DNA from: the human T2T-CHM13v2.0 reference genome, Homo sapiens
NCBI RefSeq assembly: GCF_009914755.1
Contig: NC_060926.1
Strand: one strand, 5' to 3'
Length of the DNA: 64,000 nucleotides
Shown: one piece after another, positions 7,219 to 58,692 of the stretch
Layout of the letters: each line of letters starts with the position of its first letter
How positions within the stretch are numbered: position 1 is the stretch's first letter
Notes under the pieces: generated by a model
What the model was told of the DNA's origin: nothing
Database searches by the model: none
What the model saw: the letters and a program-made list of their open reading frames with translations, nothing else
Program-made: the position numbers and the translations under genes

Positions 7219-10193
7219 TGTATTAACCTGTTATCATGCTGCTAATAAAGACATACCTGAGATTGGGTAATTTATAAAGAAAAGATGTTTAATTGACTCA
7301 CAGTTCCACATGGCTGGGGGAGACTTACAGTCATGGCAGGAGGTGAAGGAGGGGCAAAGTCATGTCTTACATGGTAGCAGGCAAGAGAGTGTGTGCAGGG
7401 GAACTCCCCTTAATAAAATCATCAGAACTTGTGAGACTTATTCACTATCACGAGAACAGCATGGGAGCGATCCACTCTCATGATTCAATTACCTCCCACC
7501 GGGTCCCTCCCATGACACACGGAAATTATGGGAGCTACAATTCAAGATGAGATTTGGGTGGAGACACAGCCAAACCGTATCATTCCACCCCTGGCCCCAC
7601 CCAAATTTCATGTCTTCACATTTCAAAACCAATCATGCCTTCCCAACAGTCCCCCAAAGTCTTAGTTCATTTCAGCATTAACTCAAAAGTTCACAGTCCG
7701 AAGTCTCATCTGAGACAAAGCACATCCCTTCCACCTGTGAGCATGTAAAATCAAAAGCAAGTTACATACTTCCTAGATACAATGAGGGTAGAGGAATTGG
7801 GTAAATACACCTGTTCCGAATACACCTGGCCAGACTAAAAGGCTACAGGCCCCATGCAAGTCCAAAATCCAGCAGGGCAGTTAAATAAAGCTCCAAAATG
7901 ATCTCCTTTGACTCCATGTCTCACATCCAGGGCATGCTGATGAAAGAGATGGGTTCCCATGGTCTTGAGCAGCTCTACCCCTGCAGCTTTGCAGGGTATA
8001 GCCCCACTCTTGGCTGCTTTCATGGGCTGGTGTTGAGTGTCAGTGGCTTTTCTAGGTATACAGTGCAAGCTGTTGGTGGATCTACCATTCTGGGGTATGG
8101 AAGACAGTGGGTCTCTTCTCACAGCTCCACTAGTCAGTGCCCCAGTGGGGATTCCATGGGGGTGCTCTAACCCCACATTTCCCTTCCACACTGCTCTAGC
8201 AGAGATTCTCCTTGAGGGCCCCACTCCTGCAGCAAACTTCTGCGTGGACATCCAGGCATTTCCATAGATCCTCTGAAATCTAGGTGGAGGTTCCCAAACC
8301 TCAATTGTTGAATTCTGTGTACCCACAGGCTCAACGCCACATGGAAGCTTCCAAGGCTTGGGGCTTGCACCCTCTGAAACCATGGTCAGAACTGTACCTT
8401 GTCCCCTTTTAGCCATGGTTGGGGCAGCTGGGATGTAGGGCACCAAGTCCCTAGGCTGCACATAGCAGCAGTCCCTGGACCTGGCCCAAGAAACCATTTT
8501 TTCTTCCTAGACCTCTGGGTCTGTGATGAGAGGGGCTGGCATGAAGTTCTCTGACAGGCCCTGGAGACATTTTCCCCATTGTCTTGGTTATTAGCCTTTG
8601 GCCCCTCATTACTTATGCAAATTTCTGCAGCTTGCTTGAGTTTCTTCCCAGAAAATGGGTTTTTCTTTTCTATTGCATCATCAGGTTGCAAATTTTTCAA
8701 AGTTTTTATGCTCTGCTTTCTTTTGAACACTTTGCCACTTAGACATTTTTTTCCACCAGATACCCTAAATCATCTCTCTCAATTTCAAAGTTCCACAGAT
8801 CTCTAGGGCAAGGGCAAAATGCAACCAGTCTCTTTGCTAAGCATAATAAGAGTTACTTTTCTTCAGTTTCCAACAAGTGCCTCATCTCCTCTTGAGACCA
8901 CCTCAGCCTGGACTTTATTGTCCATACTATCAGCATTTTGGTCAAAGCCATTCAACAAGTCTCTAGGAAGTTCTAAACTTTCACACATTTTCCTGTCTTC
9001 TGAACCCTCCAAGTCTCTAGGAAATTTCAAACATTTTCCTATCTTCTTCTGAGCCCTCCAAACTATTCCAACCTCTGCCTGTTTGTTACCTAGTTCAAGT
9101 CACTTCCACATTTTCAGGTATCTTTACAGCAGCGTAACTGCTCAATGGGTTCACTTTGCACACTGCCTAGAGAGAGCCGATTTATCAAGACAGGGGAATC
9201 GCAATAGAGAAAGAGTAATTCATGCAAAGCTGCTGTGCAGGAGACTGGAGTTTTATTATTACTCAAACCTTTCTCCCAGAACATTTGGGGATCAGAGTTT
9301 TTAAGAACAACTTGGTGGGTGGGGGAAAGCCAGTGAGCCAGGAGTGCTGATAGGTCAGGGATGAAATGATTGGGAGTTGAAGCTGTCTTCTTACACTGAC
9401 TCAGTTCCTGGGTGAAGGAGGGAGCACAAGATCAGATGAGCCAGTTTATCCATTTGGGTGGTGCCAGCTGATCCATCAAGTACAGGGTCTGTAAAATATC
9501 TCAAGCACTGCTCTTAGGAGCAGTTTAGGGAGGGTCAGAATCTTGTAGCCTCCAGCTGCATGATTCCTAAACCATAATTTCTAATTCTGTGGCTAATGTT
9601 AGTGCTACAAAGCCAATCTAGTCACTGGGCAAGAAGGAGGTTTGCTTTGGGAAAGAGATGTTATCATCTTTGTTTTAAACTGTAAACTGAGTTTCTCCCA
9701 AAGTTAGTTTAGCCTACGCCCAGGAATGAACAAAGACAGCGTGCAGGTTAGAAGCAAGATGGAGCTGATTAAATTAGATCTTTCACTGTCTTAGTCATAA
9801 TTTTGCAAAGGCACTTTCATCAGCACCCCACACTACTGGTACCAATTTACTGTATTAGTCTGTTCTCACACTGTCATACCTGAGATTGGGTAATTTATAA
9901 AGGAAAGAGGCTTAAGTGACTCAGAGTTCCACATGGCTGGGGAAGCCTCACAATCTCGGTGGAAAGCAAAAGAGGAGCAAAGTCCCGTCTTACCTGGCGG
10001 CAGGCAAGAGAGCTAGTGCCCCTTTATAAAATCATCACATCTCATGAGACTTATTCACTATCATGAGAACACCACGGGAAAGACTCGCCCCCTGATTCAA
10101 TCGCCTCCCACCGGCTTCCTCCCACAACACATGGAAATTATGGGAGCTAAATTTCAAGATGGTATTTGGGTAGGGACACAGCCAACCATATCA
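7219..10193 (-). mobile_element. Full-length THE1C-type MaLR provirus (LTR 7219-7582, internal, LTR 9851-10193)
   Basis: Two THE1 LTRs (tgtatt...tatca), THE1-int with degenerate ORF 7835-8497, and a 5-bp TSD CTTGG (7214-7218)/CTTGT (10194-10198). Confidence 0.92.
9133..9819 (-). mobile_element. LTR8 solo LTR (ERV1) nested in THE1-int
   Basis: rc starts TGAAAGTGCCTTTGCAAAATTATGACTAAGACAGTGAAAGATCT. About 690 bp with a 4-bp TSD GCAG/TCAG, and THE1-int resumes exactly on both sides. Confidence 0.88.
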
Positions 10194-13296: not shown

Positions 13297-14477
13297 TGGA
13301 TTAGTCCATTTTCACACTGCTATAAAGAACTGTCCAAGACTGGGTTTAATTAACTCACAGTTCCACATGTCTTGGAAGGCATCAGGAAACTTACAATCAT
13401 GGCAGGATGTGAAGGCAGAGCAAGGACCTTCTTCACAAGACAGCAAGAGAGAAAAGTGAGGGCACAGGAAAAATATGCCACTTTAAATACCATCAGATCT
13501 CATGAGAATTCACTCACTATCACAAGAGCAGCATGGGGGTAACCACCCCATGATCCAATCACCTCCCACCAGGTCCCATCCTTGACATGTGGGGATTATG
13601 GGAACCATAATTGAAGATGAGATTTGGGTGACACAGAGCCAAACCATATTAGTCCACTCCTGGCTCTCCCCAAATCTTATGTCCCCACATTTCAAAACAC
13701 AATCATGCCTTCCCAATCATCCCCCAAAGTATTAACTCATTCCAGCCTTAACCCAAAAATCCAGGTCCAAAGTCTCATCTGAGACACGGCAAGCCTCTTC
13801 AGTCTATGAGCCAGTAAAATAAAATACAAGTTAGTTGTTTCCAAGACACAATTGGGATACAGGCATTGGGTAAATATTCCAATTCCAAATGAAATAAATT
13901 GGCCAAAACAAAGGGGCTACAGGCCCCCATACAAGTCTGAAATCCAGCAAGACAGACATTAAAGCTTTAAAATGATCTCCTGTGACTCCATGTCTCAAAT
14001 CCAGAGCATGCTGATGCAAGAGGTGGACTTCCACGGTCTTGGGCAGCTCCGCCTCTGTGGGTTTGCAGGGTAGAGCCCCACTTCCAATACCTATTTACTG
14101 TATTAGTCTGTTTTCACACTGCTATAAAGAACTGCCTAAGACTAGGTAATTTATAAAGAAAAGAGAGTTAATTGACTCACAATTCCACATGGCTGGAGAG
14201 GCCTCAGGAAACTTATAATCACGGTGGAAGATGAAGAGGAAGCAAAGACCTTCTTCACATGATGGCAGGAGAGAGAAGTGAGGGCGCATGAAAAAACTGC
14301 CCCTTTGAAAACCACCAGATCTCATGAGAATTCACTCATTATCACGAGAACAGCATGGGAGATACTTCCCCCATGATCCAGTCACCTCTTACCAGTTCCC
14401 ACCCTCGACACTTGGGAATTATGGGAATTACAATTCAATATGAGATTTGGTTGGGGATATAGAGCCAAACCATACAA
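13297..14477 (-). mobile_element. THE1D provirus with internal deletion (LTR 13297-13651, 447-bp internal, LTR 14099-14477)
   Basis: Two THE1D-type LTRs and a TSD TCTAT (13292-13296)/TCCAT (14478-14482). Confidence 0.9.
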
Positions 14478-23774: not shown

Positions 23775-24197
23775 TATCATGGTGAAATATATATATAATA
23801 ACATAAAATTTGTCATTTTAATCATTTTAAAATATTCAGCTCAGTGGCATTTTATATTCATATTGCTGTGCAACCATCATCACTATCTATTCTAAAACAT
23901 TTTTATCACTTCCAACAGAAACTCTGCACCCATTAAGTAATAACTTCTATTTCCCTCTCCCCCAGCCCCTGGGAACTTCTCTATGAATTTTCTTATTGTA
24001 AATATTTCGAGTAAGTGGAATGTTACATCATTTATTCTTATGTGTCTCATTTCTTTTAGTTAGTATAATTTATCCAAGGTTGACCCATATTGTAGCATAT
24101 ATCAGAACTTTTTTGTGACTGAATAATATTACTTTATGTCTATTTAACACATTTAGTGTATCCATTCATCTGTTGATGGATATTGGTTGTCTCCAAT
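23775..24197 (-). mobile_element. L1MB-type 3' end
   Basis: ataacataaaatttgtcatttta..gtgcaaccatcatcactatc..ccattcatctgttgatgga. Confidence 0.8.
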
Positions 24198-24199
24198 TA

Positions 24200-24402
24200 T
24201 TTCTATTTTATTTTTATTTTAAGTTCTGGGGTACATGTGCAGGATGTGGGGTACATGTGCAGGATGTGCAGATTTGTTGCATAGGTAAACATGTGCCATC
24301 GTGGTTTGCTGCACCTATCAACCCATGGCCTATGTATTAAGCCCAGCATGCATTACCTATTTTTTCTAATGCTCTTTCTACCCCCACTCCACACCCCCAA
24401 CA
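24200..24402 (-). mobile_element. L1PA10-13-type 3' end fragment
   Basis: T-rich tail followed by gtacatgtgcaggatgtgcag..gtttgctgcacctatcaaccc. Confidence 0.85.
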
Positions 24403-27400
24403 CTCTGAATCTTTTTGAATACTTTACATAAAGCTTTTGTTTCCAATACCTCAAGGAAATTAATGTTATCAAGGTCCTCAGTGATATTCATATATTTAAA
24501 TTGAATGGTTGATTATCAATCCAAGTATTGTTTGATATATAAATGGCATTTTACAGGACTGAGTACATTTACCTACGTGAAATGCCTTCACTAGATTACC
24601 AAAAATTACTGAAGAGATTTAGGAGGTAGGATGGCCCTTGTGCAGATTCTGTGTAGAAACTGAGACCCTCCCCCTTGAAAATACCAGAGAGGATTTCCAC
24701 AGAAGCTCTAATCAACTATTTATATTGTTTTATTTTTCTGGGTTAGATGACGTGCCCATTCTTGATTCAAATACAGAAAGGGAAGATGTAATCATTCTAA
24801 TTTTCTCCAACTATTCTCTGGAGCCGAGAGTAGACTCAGTAGCTGCTGAATAAGATGCACAGACTTGTGAAAATGGTGAATATTCAAGACCTTTCTGTTT
24901 GAAAAGAGAGAGGGATTCTGTTTGGAAGGAGAAAAACAAGAATGATACTGGATTGGCAGCTAACAATATCCACTGTATGCCTGAAAGCATATCCATAGAA
25001 TATTTTTTAAAAATATCATTTCTACCTCAAGTACTAGTATTTGACTCTAAGAAATGTACTTATGTGCTTATTTAAACATTAAACCAGCATAAAATTAGAA
25101 TATTTTCTAAATTTTCTCCATGAAGGTTCATATTGAATAGAAAAAGCTATTGTTTTCTTCTTTTCCATTACAGAGCATGACCATTTAAATGTTTGAACTT
25201 TTTCCTTGACATGCACTTTAAAACAGAAGTGATATGCATTTATCTTCATGATGATTTTAGGTGAGATTTAATAGCTAGCCATACAAATAAACCCTGCAGG
25301 TGGTAAGCAATGGTCCATGCATGAAACAAGCATCCCAATTTCCAAAAGGCTATCGATTAAATGAAAATGACTATTGAACTGATCTTCTGCTACCAAAATG
25401 TTAATTAAAATTTCATTACTATTCATCAGCCACTCATACTGTAGCTCTGGGATAATGGTGATGCAGGATCTCAGTATATTATAATCTTAGTGATATATTT
25501 TTATATCATCACCATAAGAAACATTGTGTTACTCCAGAATATTTGAGATTTCTCACTGCCTGAGGCATGTATTTATTTCATATCTTTTTATTTTAGTTTA
25601 TTCTGTTCAATCCTCTTCTCAATCCATCCACCTGTACCTGATGCGTGTGTCTCTGATACTAGGCCACAGACAAATGTTCACCCAGGATTGGCCTTGAAAA
25701 TAAAACATGATGTTTGTGTCATAATCATAGCTCATATCTGACTTCATACTTGGTACAGCTAATTTTACTCCTTTTTCCTTGTGTAAATGCCAGATCCTGA
25801 TGAGTTTTAAATTTTAAAAAATCCTCTTTCCTATGTAATTATAAACTATTTCATTGTTTAAACCTTATAGTATCATGAATTTAGTACTATTTTTTTTTCT
25901 GGAAATATTTGGCATATGAACCTCTCTCACTTATGAGCAGCATATTTGTTAATTGAGATTATTGTAGATTCACTTGTGGTAGAAGGAATGATACAGAGAG
26001 ATCCCTTGTATACTTCATCCAGTTCCGCCTAATGGTGACATTTTGCGTAACCATAGCATAATAGCATAACCAGGATATTAATATCAATAAAATCCATTGA
26101 TCTAATTCAGACTTACCCAGTTTTACTTACACACACATATGTGTGTATTAAATCTGATACAATTTTAAGATGAGTAGGTGTGTTTATCCACAAATAGGAG
26201 TAAAAATGCTAAACACTAACAACAATGTCAGGTTCCTTTCTATTCTTTGATAACCATACACACCTCCCACCATTTCTCCCACTCATTTCTAAACGTTGCC
26301 ACTAAACTTATCTTCTATTTCTAAAATTTCATCATGAATAGAACAATACAGAATATAAACTTTGGGGATTAGTATTTTTTTACTTTGTGTGATTCTCTGG
26401 AGACTTGCCTAAGTTGATATGTACATAAATGATCGATTCCTTTTTATTGTTAAGTAGTATTCCATGGTGCATATGTACTGCCATTTGTTTGACCATTCAC
26501 CTACTGAAGTACATCTTGATTGAGCCGAGGTTTTGCTATTATGAATACATCTGCTATAAATATTTGTTGTATAGGCTTTTGTGAACAGAGCTTTCTCCCC
26601 ACTCTTAGAGAAATTCACAAGAGTACAACTTGCTAGGTTGAATAATAGTTGTATACCTTTTTTATTACCAAGCTCCAAGCTGTTTTCTACAGCGGCTGTA
26701 TCATTTTACATTTTCACAGGAAATATATGAGTGATTTAGTTTTTCTATGGAAATGGCAATATTTGCTGCTGTCACTTTTTTGTTAATTTTAACCATTGTA
26801 ATAGATGTGTAGTATTAGGTAATATTATATCACTGTGGTTTTAATTTGTGATTTTCTGGTGATCAATGATGTTGATATGATGCTTATTTGCCATCTGCAT
26901 ATCCTATTCACTGAAATGTCTCTTTATGTCTTTTGCCCATATTCTAATTGGTTTTTCTAGTTCATTTTTGCAAGACCTTTTGCAATCTGTATAGTTTTGT
27001 TTTGTTGAGGTTAGAGAGGTCTTTCTTATGTTCTAAATACTAGTCCTTTCTCAGATATATAATTTTAAATGTTTTCTCCAAATATGTACCTTGGTCTGTC
27101 TATCCTTTTCACACTGGTTTTCACTAAGAGAAAGTTTATAGTTTATAATTTTTTTATTTTATGTATTGTGCTTTTGATGTCAAGTCTGAGAAATTATAGC
27201 TTTCCTCTGGATCCTGAAGGTTTGTTTTCTTTTAGTTTAAACATGTTTTTTAGTTATATATTTACATTTAAGGATATAATTTATTTTGATTTAATGTTTG
27301 TGTGTTATATGAAATGTAGGCTGGGATTCTTTTTCTTTTGTTTTTTTTTTTCCTTTTGGTCTATGCATGAACAATTGCCGCAGGACCATTTCTTGAAAAG

Positions 27401-28177
27401 AACATCTTTCAGTTTAGTTCCTGCATCTTGCTCAAAAGTTTGTTAGGTATATTGTATGGGTCTGTTTCTAGGCCCTCTACCTTGTTCCATTGGCTTATGT
27501 GTCAATACCACGTAATATTAATTAATGTATGTAGATAATAAGTCTTGAAATCAGATATAATAATTCATTCCTTTTTATTTTTCCTTTTTGAAATTGTTTT
27601 AGCTAGTTTAGTTCCCTGGGCATTCCATGTAAATTTTACAGTGATAATTCTATATTTATACAAAAATGGGCTATTTTGGATAAGAATTACATTGCACCTC
27701 TGCATTGATTTAGAAAAAATTAGCCTCATTACTATACTGTTTCTTCCAATCCATGAACACAATGTCTTTCCACTTATTTAGGATTTTTAATTTATTTCAT
27801 CATTGTTGTATATTTTTCAGCATAAAGGTCGTGCACAGTTTTGTTAGATTTACAGTTAATTCATTTTTGAGTGTTGTGAATGGTATTGTGTTTTTAATTT
27901 CAGTGTTCATGGGCACATTCTAGTTTCTAGAATGAAAAATTGATTGTGTTATGCTTATCTTGTATCTTGTGACCTTGCTGGCATCATTAGCTCTGTTTTT
28001 TGATAGATCCTTTAGGATTTTCCACACAGACAATCATGTTATCAGCAAATAGAAAAAATTTTACTTTTTCCTTTCTTGTCTGTATACCTTCTGTTTCCTT
28101 TCTTTTCATTATTGCACTAGTTGAGGACTTCCAGAACTATGTTGAAAAGAGAAGTAAGAGTAGTCATCTTCACCTTG

Positions 28178-28578
28178 TGTGCTAGGCTGTTCTTATGTTG
28201 CTACAAACAAATACTTGAGAATGAGTAATTTATAAAGAAAAGAGGTTTAATTGGCTCACAGTTCTGCAGGCTGTACAGGAAACACGGCACGGGCATCTGC
28301 TCAGCTTTTGGGGTCTCTCAGGGAGATTTTACTCCCTGAGAAGCGGGAGGAGGTATGTCACATGGCCAAAGCAGAATCGAGAGAGAGAGTGGAAGGAGGT
28401 GCCACAAAGTTTAAAACAACCAGATCTCATGAGAACTCACCTACTAACCTGAGGACAGCACCAAGACATGAGGGATCTGCTCCCATGACCCCAACACCTC
28501 TCACCAGGCCCCACCTCTAACACTGAGGATTACATTTCAACATGAGATTTGGTAGGGACATATATCCAAACTATAGCA
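28178..28578 (-). mobile_element. MSTB solo LTR
   Basis: MST LTR motifs and a perfect 5-bp TSD CCTTG. Confidence 0.9.
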
Positions 28579-30565
28579 CCTTGTTCCTGATTTTAGGAAG
28601 GATTTTAGGATGTTTTTCATCATTAAGTATAATCTTAGCTGTAGGGTTTTTACCTGTTCTTTAAAATTTGGAGAAGGTCTTCCTCTATTCCTAATTTTCT
28701 AACAGTTTTTTATTATAAATATTTATTTTTTGCTGAATTAATTTTATGCATCAATTGATATGATCATCTGATTTTTCTTCTTTAGCCTGTTGATATTGTT
28801 CATTGCAATGACTGATTTTGTAATGTTGAACCATCCTTGTATTGCTGGAATAAACACACTTGGTCATGTGTATAGTTATTTTTATGTATTATTGAGTTTT
28901 ATTTCATAGTATTTTGTTAAAGATTTTTATATCTATATTTGCGAGGGATACTAATCAATTATTTTCTTTTTTGTACACTGGCTTGGGTATTAGTGTAATA
29001 CTTCATAAGAATATTTAGGAAATTTTCACTTCATTTCTATTTTCTGGTAAAGCTTGTATAAATTTAGTAATAATTACTTCTTAAATGTTTATTACTATTC
29101 TCCAGTGAAACTGTTTCAGCCAGGAATTTTATTTTTCAGGACCTTTTAATTAATAATTGAATTGCTTTGATTGTAATGGAGCTATTTTACATTGTTAATT
29201 TTATTTTGGTAATTTTTGATAGTTTGTGTTTTCAAAAAATTAGTCCATTTATTTTAAGTTGATGAAACTATGAGCATGAAGTTGTTCGTATTATTCTCTT
29301 TATCTTTTTAAAAGCTACAGAATCAAGAGCGTTATTTCTTACTTTAATTTTGACATGAGCAATAGCTGTCTTTTTGTTATTTTTGTTTAGTATTTTTGGA
29401 GTTTTATCAATTTTATTGATAAACATATTTGAAAGATATTTGATTATATTAATTTTCTTTCTTGCTTTTCTGTTTTCAATTTTATTGATTTCTGCTTTGA
29501 TTTTTTATTATTTTTTCTTTTTGTTTTGAGCTTATTTTGCTCTTCTGTTTCTACTTTTGTTAATAGAAATGTAGATTATCAACTTGAGACCTCTCATTTT
29601 TAATGTAAGCCTACACTGCTATCAGTTTTTCTCCAATCGCTTCTTTAGTTCTATCTGACATAATATTTTGTATCTTTTAAATCATTCACATCTATGTATT
29701 TGTTTTTAAATTATTTGAGACTTCCTTTTTCACCCATGGATCATTTAAAAATATGTTATTTCCCACATGTTCTCAGATTCCTCTTGTTCTGTTATTTATT
29801 TCTAGTTTGATATCATAAAAACTACAGAACACAATTTAAATTATTTCTTTTTTTAAGTTTGTTGAGGCTTGATTAATGTCTACTTATGTCTATGATCTAT
29901 CTTGATGAGTATTCCATGAAGGTCTGAAAAAAATTGTGTGTTCTGCTGTAATTGAACGGAGTGTTTATATGTGGTAGTTAGATCTTCTTAGTTAAATGTG
30001 CAGATATTCTAGATATTCCAGGTCATTGCTGATTTTCTAATAATTCTATCATTATTATCATTGTTATAATGATAGTGTTGGAGTCTGCAATTACAGTAGT
30101 GAATCTCTGCTTTCAACTCTTTATCAGTTTTTGTTTCACATTATTTTGCAAATATGATCTTGTGGTCAGTACATATTTAGAATTTTTATGTCTAGTTGAT
30201 TGATTCTTTTATCATCATTAGTATAAAAGACACAAGGATCAAAACATCTAAATGAAATGTGGTTCAGACAAGAAGGCATAGACGCACTTCTTCTTGCTGT
30301 CTCTCACGAGACACAACCTTAAGCACTAGAAGTAGTGAAAAGACAAATATAGAGGAGAAACCTGAAGGTAGTAAAAATAAGAGAGCTTTCTTTGTACTAT
30401 CCTTGAGTGTTTCACTACATATTAAATTTCCAGAATGCATCACTAGAACCTATATTGTATCTGTGGACACTCTTTAAATGTAGACATTTAAGCAAAAGTC
30501 AAAAGATTAAATCTAGAAATAAAAATGAATATGACATTTGATGAGAAGGATTGGCTCCTGCTGCA

Positions 30566-30638
30566 AATAAATTTCTGTTCATTATACATTACTCAGTCAG
30601 TGGTATTCTATTACAGCAGCATGAAGTAGTCTAATACA
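30566..30638 (+). mobile_element. MaLR (MST/MLT1A-type) LTR 3'-end fragment
   Basis: aataaatttctgttc..cagtggtattctattacagcagc..gtctaataca. Confidence 0.7.
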
Positions 30639-33600
30639 TCTGACCAAGAACGGAGAATCTCAGTCCTATGAGGACAAAGAGGCTTCCATGACCTGCTAAG
30701 TTGCCTGGTATTGTTCAGTCTCTCCTGCAGGCTCTGTCTTGTAGCCTAGGTATCACTTGGTAGAAAAAAGCAGTCTCAGGGCAGGTGGGTAAGGAGAGGC
30801 ACTCTCATGTCTTAAGTTCAGCTGGTGCTATCCTGGGGACTCCTGTTTGATCTGGAGAAACAATGGGCCTATCTGGGCTGCCTTCTGCTACTGTGTCATG
30901 GGGGAAAGAAATACTGGATATTGATGGCCTTCCTCTGGCAGGTGGGAGGACACAAGGCATCTTGATGTTGTGTTGTTGCTCAAATCCTGGGTCCCCACAC
31001 CAGCTCTTCTATTTTTACCACCCACAGAGTTCTCCTTTATTTGCTTTTTGTACCATTTGCAGTATTTAAGGTTGTGCCTAGTGAGAGGGAGCAAGAAGAA
31101 GTGGGTCTATGCCTTCTTATCTGAGCTACAGCTTACTTAGATGTTTTTGATCCTTGTTTCTCTAATATTAATGATTAATTTTTAAAACTTTAGCCTAAAT
31201 TAATCTGTATTACCTTATTTCCATAAACTCCATAAAGACAGAATGTAGGTTTCATTTTTATATAATTAAACACCCTGTCTACAATTTACAAAGAAATGAT
31301 ATGTCATTTAAGTTTCATAAAATGGAAAAAGATTAATCACAGACAGTTTATTTCTTTAAAAAAAAACACAAATTTTACTTATTTCTGTATTTGTCATAAG
31401 TTCAACCTTTTTGCCATTATCTTGATCAGTGTAAAATGCTTGGATGGTCAGTGTTGTTTGACTTGTGTCTGTATTTGGTTAGGATCCATTTAAACTCTCT
31501 AGGATAATGTCAAAATCAATTTCTTCCTTTATACTTTCTTATTTCCAAAGAAAAGGTGCTAGATATTTCTATGAATATATAGAAATATCTATGCAAATAT
31601 GTATCTGACTAAAAATGTTGCAGGCATCTTTTCTGTTTTTTTTACCCTTTGTAATATTTTTATTTTCTGTTTATTTAGTGATATAAGGGAAAGTTGTAAG
31701 CATTTAACTACATAATCTTTTATGTTTCCACCAAACTCAATTTTTTAGTTCTTAGTATATGGCCTGTAATCTAACTTTAATATATCCCTTTTATATTAGC
31801 TTATTTCCTTGTTAACAACAAGGATATCTCTTCTGGAGTATCCCAAGTCAAGGTGGAAAAAGTAGTCAACAGGAAAATGAACAGAACACTTATTGGATCT
31901 GTATGAGAATTTAAAGCAAATGTTTCTAAATGAGAAATTGTAACTCAGGAAATATTTTGCATATTCTATCAAAATTTTGTGAATTTTGATAATAAAACAT
32001 TCACAATTCAATTAGGAGAAAAGGAAGAAAATATAAGCTACATCTATCAATAAAAGATTTTTTTTTCCATTTTTGTTTCATCTAACAGTATTCTTTTCCC
32101 TCCATAAGGAATCTGTTAAAAACTCTCTTCTTACTATCCTTCAGTCTTTTAAAATGTGTTAAATTCCCACAATGCATTATTTGAGCCTATATCTGTGGAC
32201 ACTCTTTATGTGTTGGTATTTGAGCAAAAGTAGGAAGAATAAATCCAGAAATAAAAATGAATGGGAAATTTGACAGGAGAGATTGCTTTCTACTGCCAAA
32301 TATATAACTATACTTCATCTAGTCTATCACTCAAGGAGGTTTCAGAATGAAGAATCATTTCCAAAATGCCATCCTACTTTCATCTTTTCCCAAGGAAGTT
32401 CAGAATAACCTGCAAGTGGATCACTGAACAAAGAAAGTACAAAACCACAAATAGTCCCTCTAAGGTCCTTTAAACCACAAACTTGGAACATTTTTATGAC
32501 ATTTCAAAATGACTTGTGATCCTGATACTACTAGTTAAAGATATAGCTTGAATCAAATAAAATAAATTATAGGTCATCTGTCTAAGGATGGAACATTTTG
32601 TTTTGTTTTATTTTCCCCATTTGACTTCTTAAAATTAATTATAGTTTCTTTAATATATATTGCAGAGATTATATATTTTTAAATCCAGGTTATAGAATAA
32701 AAATACTTTGCTTCACTTATCATTTGATATAAGTTCTATAAGTAAAAACTCAGTTCTACTTATATATTTCTACATAGAAGCACCACTTATAGTTCGTTGG
32801 CATTTTAAAAAGAAGGTAAAATTATGCTAACTGATTTTGCTATGAGACAGATCAACCTAGATTTTATGAATACAATAATTAACTTAAGTGCTTCAAATGG
32901 GTTTAGTGCTTTATGGTCTGAGATACTGCTTCCACCTAAAGAAACACCAATTTAGCAGAAACTAGAAAAAGAATTGGGAAAGAAGAAAGTGTTTTTTGGA
33001 AATACACCAACCATAAAAGAACGAAGCTCACTCTGCTCCTCTTAAAGTTTACTGCATTGTAATTGGGAATTTGTTATTTCCCTGGTTCCTTTGAGTAATA
33101 TAGACATAAGCAAAGAGAGTATTTATGTTCTGCACGAGTCCACTCATGTCTGTATTGTTGTGATTACCCTCCCCTAACGCTAAGTTACTAACTTATGCTT
33201 TAGCAAAGAGAGTGTAAACTATTCTAATGAAAGCTTATATAACTGCATATTATAAAGCATAACTGCTTACATAGGCTACCAATATCTGAGGCAGTCATGA
33301 TCATATGCTTGCAAATTGGTGAATGCAGAGGTTGCATACAAACCGTTGAAAAATTTGGGGTACTTAGCAATTCAAATTCTAAATTAAAGGAGCAATTATT
33401 TCTGAGATCTTCAGAGCAATTCTGATTTTTACAGCCTACTCTATGGATATGGTATGTCTCAGATGACATCCTCTCTTATGATTCCAGCTCAGTTCGCTGT
33501 ATCCCTTTAGCTTCAAGTTGAACTCAGTTCTCTATTAGGTATTTAGAATCCTCAGATTATTTGCAAGGACTATCTACAAATATATAAATTATCCACTTTG

Positions 33601-51350: not shown

Positions 51351-51769
51351 TGTGTTAGTCTATTTGCATTACTATAAAGGAGTTTCTGAAACCAGGTAAT
51401 TTATAAAGAAAAGAGGTTTATTTGGGCTCACAGTTCTCCAAGCTGCACAGGAAGCATTGTGCTGGCATCTGCTCCTGGTGATGGCCTCAGGAGGCTTACA
51501 ATCATGGCAGAAGGCCAAGGGAAAACAGCAGGTTGCGTTGCAAAAAGAAGGAGTAAGAGACAGAGAGAGGAGGTGCCAGGTGCTTTAAACATCCAGATCT
51601 CATGTGAATTCATAGAGTAAGAACCCACTAATTACGTTAAGACAGCACCAAGCCATTCATGAAGGAATCTCCCCTATGACTCAAATATCTCCTACTATGT
51701 CTATCTCCAACATTGGAGGTAATGTTTCATGAGGGGATTTGGAGGGATCAAAACATCCAAACCATATCA
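51351..51769 (-). mobile_element. MSTB-type solo LTR
   Basis: tgtgttagtc...accatatca with a perfect TSD TCTCC. Confidence 0.9.
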
Positions 51770-58360: not shown

Positions 58361-58692
58361 ATAAAAGAGTGTAATTGGATTCTTTGTAACTCAAAGGATA
58401 AGTGCTTGAGGGCATGGATACCCGATTCTGTATGATGTGATTACTAATACCTAGTATTTGGTAGCACAACAGGGTGATTATACTCAAAAGAATTTAATTG
58501 TACATTTTAAAATAACTAAAAGAGCATAATTGGATTGTTTGTAACACAAAGGATGAATGCTTGAGGGGATGGATACCCCATTTCCCATGATGAGATTATT
58601 ACACATTGCATGTCTATATCAAAACATCTCATCTACCACATAAATATATACAATTACTCTGTGCCCACAATAATTTAAAATTTAAAATAAAA
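58361..58692 (+). mobile_element. L1MA1/2-type 3' fragment with a duplicated 5' segment
   Basis: taattggattgtttgtaacacaaaggat..ggatacccc motif occurs twice. TSD GAGAACTTCTACAT/GAAAAATTCTACAT. Confidence 0.85.

What the first reader, a model, noticed from the sequence alone, without database searches (positions are those of the whole stretch)
30214..32302. Fossil multi-template-switch rearrangement: an L1M deletion patched with copies of nearby loci
Seen: the minus-strand L1M breaks off in its endonuclease region at ~30219. Next come three pieces. (A') 30214-30387 is an inverted copy of 31002-31175 (L1 5' end plus ~45 bp of its unique flank), ~80% identical by hand count. (B') ~30395-30569 is a direct copy of apparently non-repeat DNA at 32132-32302, ~77%. 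(C) 30566-30638 is a MaLR LTR end. The L1 5'UTR resumes later. Junction microhomologies are ATCATT (L1/A') and AAATA (B'/C). A' and B' are both ~175 bp and similarly diverged. Inference: one ancient FoSTeS/MMBIR- or Pol-theta-like event with serial template switches, fixed in the germline and hidden from repeat annotation.
Basis: partly seen in the sequence, partly recalled or inferred. Interest (0 to 1): 0.8.

Follow-up and report, generated by a model that had tools for sequence, protein, structure and literature searches.

The report
Ancient L1 deletion patched by local copies
An old, dead L1 element lost about 2 kb from its middle, and the gap was filled with two roughly 180-base copies of DNA lying 1-2 kb away, a fossil scar of error-prone DNA repair with no sign of present function.

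Summary
A' (30214-30387) is an inverted copy of A (31002-31175): 79% identity, E 1e-35. B' (30386-30570) is a direct copy of B (32123-32303): 77% identity, E 1e-33.

Neither is a dispersed repeat. In the whole T2T genome both occur only here and in two chr15 pericentromeric paralogs, which carry the same arrangement.

A spans the 5' terminus of an L1 family (about 31133) plus 42 bases of private flank. A' copies both parts.

Compared with intact relatives, the window's minus-strand L1 lacks about 1.9 kb: the start of the endonuclease region, the ORF1 region and the ORF1-side 200 bases of the 5'UTR.

I correct one point. Piece C (30565-30638) ends exactly at the terminus of a high-copy LTR family. 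It is therefore best read as the remnant of an LTR already resident in the L1 5'UTR, not as a third templated patch.

The junctions show overlaps of about 6, 2 and 6 bases. The two patches are equally diverged (K2P 0.24 and 0.28).

Best reading: one microhomology-mediated template-switch repair (MMBIR/FoSTeS-like), older than the chr2-to-chr15 duplication. Pol-theta-type joining fits the patch sizes poorly. Orthologs could not be examined, so a single event remains an inference. This is a known kind of event and a tidy example of modest interest.

The parts
26429..30213 (-). Body of an old L1 (ORF2 side), running 3' to 5' as coordinates rise. It stops inside the endonuclease region at 30213-30220.
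   Evidence: Dispersed repeat: 115 candidates. Collinear matches to other L1 copies from 26429 upward, with homology ending at 30214-30220 in 4 of 8 L1 copies. The stretch of relative L034 just before the break-equivalent point matches Pfam Exo_endo_phos_2 at E 2.4e-5, which is 24.6 bits and below the 27.4-bit cut-off.
30214..30387 (+). A': inverted copy of A, that is, the L1 5' terminus plus 42 bases of its flank. This is the first templated patch.
   Evidence: 79.8% over 173 bases, K2P 0.242 +/- 0.044. The only genome-wide matches are this locus and the chr15 paralogs. The flank part 30214-30256 matches 31134-31175 at 36 of 41 bases, while 15 other family copies are unrelated there.
30386..30570 (+). 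B': direct copy of B. This is the second templated patch. It overlaps A' by CT and the LTR remnant by CAAATA.
   Evidence: 77.2% over 180 bases, K2P 0.278 +/- 0.048. The only genome-wide matches are this locus and the chr15 paralogs.
30565..30638 (+). C: last ~74 bases of an LTR-type dispersed repeat. The ERVL-MaLR name is recalled, not tool-tested. Read as the remnant of a resident LTR whose left part was lost in the event.
   Evidence: 517 candidates. 37 dispersed hits at 81-93% identity, most of them ending at query base 79, which is window 30638; all four other copies examined end at the same column, after which the sequences are unrelated.
30639..31133 (-). L1 5'UTR, distal part, ending at the L1 5' terminus near 31133.
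   Evidence: 18 of 30 loci fetched with the 5'-region query match within 30630-31159. 14 of those 30, plus L046, cross 31002 without a break. Collinear with L034 2620-3136, which follows an L1 endonuclease region. The family copies lose mutual similarity after about 31133.
31002..31175 (+). A: donor of A'. It comprises L1 5'UTR 31002-31133 plus private flank 31134-31175.
   Evidence: A is the original because family alignments run straight through its inner edge at 31002.
32123..32303 (+). B: donor of B', lying inside low-copy DNA.
   Evidence: The 1-kb query 31700-32700 matches only itself, the two chr15 paralogs and the three B' copies. The B' homology covers query bases 424-606, which is window 32123-32305.

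Best explanation
State before the event (inferred): a full-length or nearly full-length old L1 on the minus strand, with an LTR integrated in its 5'UTR.

The event: in a germline cell of a distant ancestor, one repair or replication accident removed about 1.9 kb of L1 and roughly 0.3 kb of the LTR. The lost L1 sequence was the first ~100 codons of the endonuclease, the ORF1 region and about 200 bases of the 5'UTR.

Proposed steps:
1. A free 3' end at 30213-30219 annealed through a few bases (ATCATT) to the opposite strand about 3 kb ahead. It copied 174 bases backwards across the L1 5' terminus, producing A'.
2. It let go and re-annealed through CT 1.1 kb further on, on the original strand. 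It copied about 181 bases, producing B'.
3. It let go again and re-annealed through CAAATA inside the resident LTR. Normal synthesis then resumed.

This is a microhomology-mediated template-switch event of the MMBIR/FoSTeS type with two excursions.

Shown:
- The two local copies, their orientation, their abutment and their equal divergence.
- The missing L1 segment.
- The junction overlaps.
- The LTR terminus at 30638.
- Presence of the whole structure before the chr2/chr15 duplication.

Inferred:
- That all of this was one event.
- The replicative mechanism.
- The order L1, then LTR, then the event.
- The age. It is roughly 60-110 Myr, based on recalled substitution rates.

Nothing suggests a present function.
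For: - Local copies rather than repeats. The A' query gives 6 of 6 matches at three paralogous loci only. The B query behaves the same way.
- A' copies private flank. 15 independent family copies diverge from each other after about 31133, yet A and A' stay 36 of 41 identical beyond that point.
- A' derives from an already aged A. In the 132-base L1 part, A and A' share 27 differences from the majority of the family. Private differences number 14 in A' and 8 in A. A further 72 positions are all the same, 4 differ in all three, and 7 have no majority.
- One L1 with a hole. L034 carries the endonuclease region and the same 5' family in the same order and orientation. L049, L055, L069 and L071 carry a further 1.0-1.4 kb between them. 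These stretches are homologous to one another and to L017 upstream of the break point. The window has none of this sequence.
- Equal divergence. K2P is 0.242 +/- 0.044 for A/A' and 0.278 +/- 0.048 for B/B'.
- The patches abut with a 2-base overlap. The outer junctions have about 6-base overlaps.
- All parts are present in both chr15 paralogs, which differ from chr2 by 104 of 3066 aligned bases, or 3.4%.
- Literature. The MMBIR model predicts 3' tails annealing at microhomology, with multiple template switches and inverted segments (PMC2621351, abstract and passages). In yeast, complex insertions at breaks are commonly two sequences from the same locus in inverted orientation (PMC11724301, abstract only).
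Against: - No outgroup genome was available. The pieces could have arrived on different branches.
- The L1/A' overlap is not clean. The L1 relatives read ATCATTATG at that point, so the window carries an extra ATC. Microhomology read from sequences this diverged is uncertain.
- The endonuclease and ORF1 labels rest on sub-threshold Pfam hits in relatives. Exo_endo_phos_2 scored 24.6 bits against a cut-off of 27.4. Tnp_22_dsRBD scored E 0.0038, no better than 4 unrelated hits at E 0.0015-0.0095 in the same call of 118 pieces.
- The window's own 61 minus-strand pieces gave no L1 domain. PDB searches were not significant.
- That B rather than B' is the original rests on parsimony only.
Confidence: 0.6

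Rival explanations
1. Several independent events that happen to lie side by side: one or more deletions inside the L1, plus two separate small duplicative insertions (A' and B') at different times.
For: No ortholog data exist to tie the pieces to one branch. The standard errors on divergence are wide, about 0.045 each, so ages differing by tens of Myr cannot be excluded.
Against: The patches abut with a 2-base overlap exactly at the L1 discontinuity. Their divergences are indistinguishable (0.242 against 0.278). In the 64-kb window only 4 of 51 self-matches are single-pair, and these are two of the four. Chance adjacency is therefore unlikely.
Confidence: 0.14
2. Non-replicative capture. A double-strand gap in the L1 was closed by end joining that trapped two free DNA fragments of about 175-185 bases (nucleosome- or Okazaki-sized) from the neighbouring kilobases of the sister chromatid or homolog, each in random orientation.
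For: Both patches are close to one nucleosome repeat in length: 174 and 181-185 bases. The donors are intact and nearby. Mixed orientation comes naturally with capture. Insertion of distant templated pieces at breaks is documented in yeast (PMC11724301, abstract).
Against: Overlaps of about 6 bases at two of three junctions fit annealing-primed synthesis better than blunt capture. With only two patches, the size agreement may be chance.
Confidence: 0.15
3. No deletion in a single L1. A 5'-truncated L1 (ending at 30213) inserted beside an older, separate L1 5' fragment, and A'B' is an unrelated earlier duplication in the target DNA.
For: 5' truncation is the commonest fate of L1 insertions (established knowledge). 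The break at 30213-30220 taken alone looks like a truncation point. Two loci (L054, L056) show the 5' family next to unrelated L1 pieces, so nesting does occur.
Against: The two L1 parts have the same orientation and the right order, as in L034. If an L1 had split a longer A', the continuation of the A flank (31176 onward) should reappear left of the L1's 3' end. No such homology exists anywhere in the window at E<=0.01.
Confidence: 0.07
4. A'/A and B'/B are merely members of dispersed repeat families (independent insertions), or A'/A are the terminal inverted repeats of a DNA transposon.
For: The inner 132 bases of A do belong to a dispersed L1 5' family with at least 101 candidates.
Against: A' has no genome match other than A and the paralogs. 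A against A' is 79% identical, whereas A is 55-66% identical to 15 other copies in the alignment. The similarity continues 42 bases past the family terminus. B and the 1 kb around it are low-copy. No other copy of a 962-base unit exists.
Confidence: 0.02

Closest known systems
MMBIR / FoSTeS complex rearrangements (Hastings et al. 2009, PMC2621351; abstract and passages read)
   Same: Several junctions in cis. Microhomology of a few bases. Templated segments from nearby DNA in direct and inverted orientation. Deletion mixed with duplication.
   Different: Described mainly for recent pathogenic or somatic events with segments and jumps of tens to hundreds of kb. Here the patches are about 180 bases, the jumps are 1-3 kb, and the event is a fixed fossil with copies about 25% diverged.
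Complex templated insertions at double-strand breaks in yeast (PMC11724301; abstract only)
   Same: Two sequences from the same locus, in mutually inverted orientation, inserted at one break. Template switching at microhomology is the proposed cause.
   Different: That work is an experimental yeast system. Its local foldback products are mostly 5-34 bases. The present donors lie beside the break, not at distant fragile sites.
Short-range template switches in primate genomes (Loytynoja and Goldman 2017, PMC5453318; Walker et al. 2021, PMC7954356; search listing and abstract openings only)
   Same: A germline, evolutionarily fixed template switch that creates a nearby inverted copy, detected by sequence comparison.
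   Different: As I recall, those events replace tens of bases with one inverted copy from the immediate vicinity. Here there are two patches of about 180 bases, one of them direct, together with a 2-kb deletion.
Pol-theta-mediated end joining with templated insertions
   Same: Microhomology at the junctions and templated filler at a deletion.
   Different: Filler in that pathway is typically under about 30 bases and is copied from within tens of bases of the break (recalled). The sizes here (174 and 185 bases) and distances (0.6-1.7 kb today) do not fit.
L1 twin priming / 5' inversion
   Same: An L1 carrying an internal segment in the opposite orientation.
   Different: Twin priming inverts internal L1 sequence at the time of insertion. 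A' contains 42 bases of non-L1 flank and sits next to non-L1 B'.

Membership tests
MMBIR/FoSTeS-type template-switch rearrangement | Inserted segments are copies of nearby sequence whose donors remain in place, in direct or inverted orientation | tested here: met
   A'/A are inverted and B'/B are direct. The donors are intact at 31002-31175 and 32123-32303. Both are low-copy genome-wide.
MMBIR/FoSTeS-type template-switch rearrangement | Microhomology of a few bases at each junction | tested here: met
   ATCATT at L1/A', with an extra ATC relative to the L1 relatives. CT at A'/B'. CAAATA at B'/LTR. Caveat: these are read from sequences about 13% diverged per lineage.
MMBIR/FoSTeS-type template-switch rearrangement | All junctions arose in one event | not testable with these tools
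   No outgroup genomes were available. Indirect support only: the patches abut and have equal K2P, and all parts are present in the chr15 paralogs.
MMBIR/FoSTeS-type template-switch rearrangement | Replicative synthesis dependent on break-induced-replication factors | not testable with these tools
   This is a historical event with no experimental handle.
Pol-theta end joining with templated filler | Short filler (tens of bases or less) templated from the immediate break vicinity | tested here: not met
   The patches are 174 and 185 bases. The donors lie 615 and 1538 bases away today, and further before the deletion. The size criterion itself is recalled.
Independent insertions of a dispersed repeat | Many equally good matches elsewhere, with similarity confined to the family consensus | tested here: not met
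   Searches give paralogs only. The similarity runs 42 bases past the family terminus.
DNA transposon with terminal inverted repeats (30214-31175 as one unit) | Multiple genomic copies of the unit, target-site duplication, and repeats that are its own termini | tested here: not met
   There are no copies beyond the paralogs. The right arm is the 5' end of an L1 family. No flanking duplication is visible at 30207-30213 and 31176-31182.
L1 twin priming | The inverted segment is internal L1 sequence produced at insertion | tested here: not met
   A' includes non-L1 flank and is joined to non-L1 B'.
LINE-1 (identity of the host element) | ORF2 endonuclease and reverse-transcriptase domains, ORF1, 5'UTR, and high-copy dispersal | tested here: inconclusive
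   High-copy dispersal is met. Domain evidence comes only from relatives and is below the Pfam cut-offs: Exo_endo_phos_2 at E 2.4e-5 and Tnp_22_dsRBD at E 0.0038. The window's own pieces gave none. PDB LINE-1 ORF2p scored E 4.2.
ERVL-MaLR LTR (identity of C) | Match to a named MaLR consensus | not testable with these tools
   No repeat library was held. Shown instead: it is a high-copy family (517 candidates), units are about 390-400 bases (28178-28578 and L046 2597-2985), and copies share a common terminus. The family name is recalled.

The most novel reading that the evidence does not exclude
The two patches are each about one nucleosome repeat or one Okazaki fragment long (174 and 181-185 bases). 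If that is not chance, the scar records the capture or copying of two Okazaki-sized nascent strands from a collapsed fork. Similar paired local patches at breaks inside old transposons may then be a widespread, unannotated class of germline repair scar. They could be mined genome-wide to measure ancient repair-pathway use.
Probability: 0.1. Interest if true: 0.55.

Novelty: new member of a known kind. Interest (0 to 1): 0.3.

Why it matters
The locus shows that a multi-step, microhomology-mediated repair scar stays readable after roughly a quarter of its bases have changed. Old transposons can serve as rulers for what was lost and what was pasted in. A systematic search for low-copy local patches at transposon discontinuities could estimate how often such events were fixed in mammalian germlines. 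The locus itself lies in a gene desert and shows no sign of function. No Rfam family matched and no annotated gene lies in the window.

Tried and rejected
Searches that gave nothing useful:
- Pfam on 61 stop-free minus-strand pieces of window 24000-31200 found no L1 domain, only 6 unrelated weak hits at E 0.011-0.12.
- PDB sequence searches with two window pieces gave nothing for 30116-30208. For 29271-29504, LINE-1 ORF2p scored E 4.2, which is not significant.
- Rfam on 29000-33000 at E<=1 gave no match.

Models rejected:
- RNA route. Under this idea, A and B would be two exons of an L1-antisense-promoter transcript, reverse-transcribed into the break. I reject it because A' and B' have opposite orientations relative to their donors, and because no GT follows 31175 and no AG precedes 32123.
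- Inversion with a staggered-break duplication (A'/A flanking an inverted middle). I reject it because the middle (30639-31001) is continuous with A in the L1 orientation. 14 of 30 loci, plus L046, align straight across 31002.
- A once-contiguous donor rc(A)+B, later separated by inversion of 31002-32122. I reject it for the same reason.
- The local LTR at 28178-28578 as donor of C. C is 68% identical to it, no closer than to copies elsewhere (69-73%; 81-93% for the best genome hits).
- Extension of B' to 30585, as in the BLAST alignment. Past 30570 the match falls to about chance level.
Full report
**What is there**

I read 29400-33100 and ran the repeat finder and a sensitive self-BLAST.
- A' 30214-30387 is the reverse complement of A 31002-31175: 78.9% over 175 columns, E 1.6e-35.
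- B' is a direct copy of B. BLAST reports 30386-30585 against 32123-32318 (73.6% over 201 columns, E 6e-33).
- Global alignment shows that the real similarity ends at 30570/32303. Identity there is 77.2% over 180 aligned bases. For A'/A it is 79.8% over 173 aligned bases.
- In a self-comparison of the whole window at E<=1e-10, 51 pairs appear. Only 4 involve sequence matched just once in the window, and the A and B pairs are two of them.

**Are they dispersed repeats?**

- Searched against the whole T2T genome, A' gives 6 of 6 matches. These are itself, two chr15 copies at 96%, and the three A copies at 78-79%.
- A 221-base query around B gives itself, two chr15 copies at 99%, and the three B' copies at 75-79%.
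- A 1-kb query (31700-32700) gives the same six places and nothing else.
- The search tool warns that its counts are lower bounds. However, it did find 64-75% matches for the L1 body, so its sensitivity was adequate.

**The host element**

- 29700-30213 is a high-copy repeat: 115 candidates, 40 scored.
- Eight other copies reach this region. In four of them (L017, L027, L034, L038) the homology to the window ends at 30214-30220. In the other four it ends earlier.
- The stretch of L034 just before the break-equivalent point matches Pfam Exo_endo_phos_2 at E 2.4e-5. That is 24.6 bits, below the 27.4-bit cut-off, in a call of 118 pieces.
- The window's own 61 minus-strand pieces gave no L1 domain, and PDB searches were not significant.
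- The names "L1" and "endonuclease region" therefore rest on relatives and on my recollection of L1 ORF2 sequence. They fit the data but are not proven here.

**The other side of the gap**

- 30639-31133 belongs to a second dispersed family, with 79 and 101 candidates for two different query copies.
- 18 of the 30 loci fetched with the 5'-region query match within 30630-31159. 14 of the 30, plus L046, align straight across 31002, the inner edge of A.
- In L034 this family follows the endonuclease region in the same order and orientation as in the window. Window 30648 corresponds to L034 2620, and window 30817 to L034 2834.
- L049, L055, L069 and the L071 group have a further 1.0-1.4 kb between the start of ORF2 and this family. 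These stretches are homologous to one another (58-71%) and to L017 upstream of the break.
- One of these stretches gives a weak ORF1 C-terminal hit (Tnp_22_dsRBD, E 0.0038). This is no better than four unrelated hits in the same call, so it is only suggestive.
- The canonical order is therefore ORF2, then an ORF1 region, then a 5'UTR of about 0.7-0.8 kb. The window lacks about 1.9 kb of it.

**A contains private flank, and A' copies it**

- In an alignment of A, the reverse complement of A' and 15 independent family copies, the copies stop resembling one another after about window 31133.
- A and A' remain 36 of 41 identical over 31134-31175 against 30214-30256.
- In the L1 part, using the pairwise A/A' alignment projected on the family alignment, I counted 132 positions:
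  - 72 are the same in A, A' and the family majority.
  - 27 are shared by A and A' against the majority.
  - 14 are private to A'.
  - 8 are private to A.
  - 4 differ in all three.
  - 7 have no majority.
- The first attempt at this count used a multiple alignment that misplaced part of A' and overstated its private changes.
- A' is therefore a copy of an already aged A, not a second L1 insertion.

**Piece C**

- The query 30560-30660 has 517 candidates. The 37 scored dispersed hits are 81-93% identical, and most end at query base 79, which is window 30638.
- Four other copies aligned with flanks all end at that column and are unrelated beyond it.
- A template switch has no reason to stop at the last base of an LTR, whereas an integration boundary does. 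L1 5'UTR homology resumes by 30647.
- I therefore read C as the right end of an LTR that already sat in the L1 5'UTR. The right edge of the deletion lies inside it.
- The overlap CAAATA is shared by B and by the LTR copies. It fits an annealing step in that resident LTR.
- The MaLR name is recalled, not tested.

**Junctions**

- L1/A': ATCATT, or perhaps ATCATTA. The L1 relatives read ATCATTATG here, so the window has an extra ATC.
- A'/B': CT.
- B'/LTR: CAAATA.

**Timing**

- K2P is 0.242 +/- 0.044 for A/A' and 0.278 +/- 0.048 for B/B'. These are indistinguishable.
- Both chr15 paralogs carry every part. They differ from chr2 by 104 of 3066 aligned bases (3.4%) and from each other by 0-0.6% per segment.
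- The event is therefore several-fold older than that duplication.
- With recalled mammalian rates I place it at very roughly 60-110 Myr.

**Mechanism**

The simplest account is one microhomology-mediated template-switch repair with two excursions, one to the opposite strand, and a return into the LTR. It matches the MMBIR description (PMC2621351, abstract and passages). It also matches a yeast observation that complex insertions at breaks are often two sequences from one locus in inverted orientation (PMC11724301, abstract only).

Rivals:
- Separate events.
- End-joining capture of two nucleosome-sized fragments.
- Two unrelated L1 pieces. For this last rival I looked for the continuation of the A flank elsewhere in the window and found none at E<=0.01.

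Pol-theta joining is a poor fit for patch size, a criterion I recall rather than tested.

**What remains open**

No other vertebrate genome was available. The one-event claim, the direction B to B', and the order L1, LTR, event are all inferences. No repeat library was held, so the family names are untested.

**Verdict**

This is a real and neatly resolved fossil of a known kind of repair event.

Noticed in passing
window ~28200-33170; G000 C15:18270108-18275698 (minus) and C15:19265052-19270642 (plus): The locus is part of a segmental duplication. There are two chr15 pericentromeric copies, about 1 Mb apart and in opposite orientation. They are 3.4% diverged from chr2 and 0-0.6% per segment from each other. 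The alignment breaks down right of window ~33170, which may be the duplication edge or an artefact of where the fetched chr15 sequence ends.
   Followed up: partly
window 30419-30535 (B'): Of the 8 sites where chr2 B' differs from both chr15 copies, 7 have the chr15 state matching donor B and 0 have the chr2 state matching it. Four of the seven are G to A. The other three segments split 2:3, 3:2 and 2:1. Possible causes are a mutation cluster on chr2, conversion on chr15, or chance (two-sided p about 0.016 before correcting for four segments).
   Followed up: partly
window 30287 and 31101: These are paired positions of the A'/A inverted repeat. Both differ between chr2 and chr15 in a complementary way: C and G on chr2, T and A on chr15. 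This is a single site and may be a parallel change or arm-to-arm conversion.
   Followed up: no
window 31560-31591: A perfect 13-base inverted repeat with a 6-base spacer, AT-rich, lying between donors A and B. It could be a small hairpin-forming site, but it is not at any breakpoint.
   Followed up: no
window 28178-28578 (minus) and 51351-51424: Further copies of an LTR-type family related to C. The first is a unit of about 400 bases inserted in the L1 ORF2 region in the opposite orientation to C.
   Followed up: partly
window 7287-8008 and 13344-14082: A direct pair of 746 bases at 76% identity, 5.3 kb apart, matched only to each other within the window. It may be the two LTRs of one old provirus-like element, or a local duplication.
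   Followed up: no
window 58362-58446 and 58517-58601: A direct pair of 85 bases at 83.5% identity, 71 bases apart.
   Followed up: no
L034 (G000 C1:113436356-113439863), locus positions ~2306-2412: This relative L1 lacks the ~1.0-1.4 kb ORF1 region that L049, L055, L069 and L071 carry between ORF2 and the 5'UTR. It is another internal L1 deletion. I did not check it for patches.
   Followed up: no
window 30159-30275: Weak self-complementarity spans the L1/A' junction. One search gives 65% over 120 columns. One search gives arms 30182-30212 and 30223-30253 at 71%. It is near chance level for AT-rich sequence.
   Followed up: no
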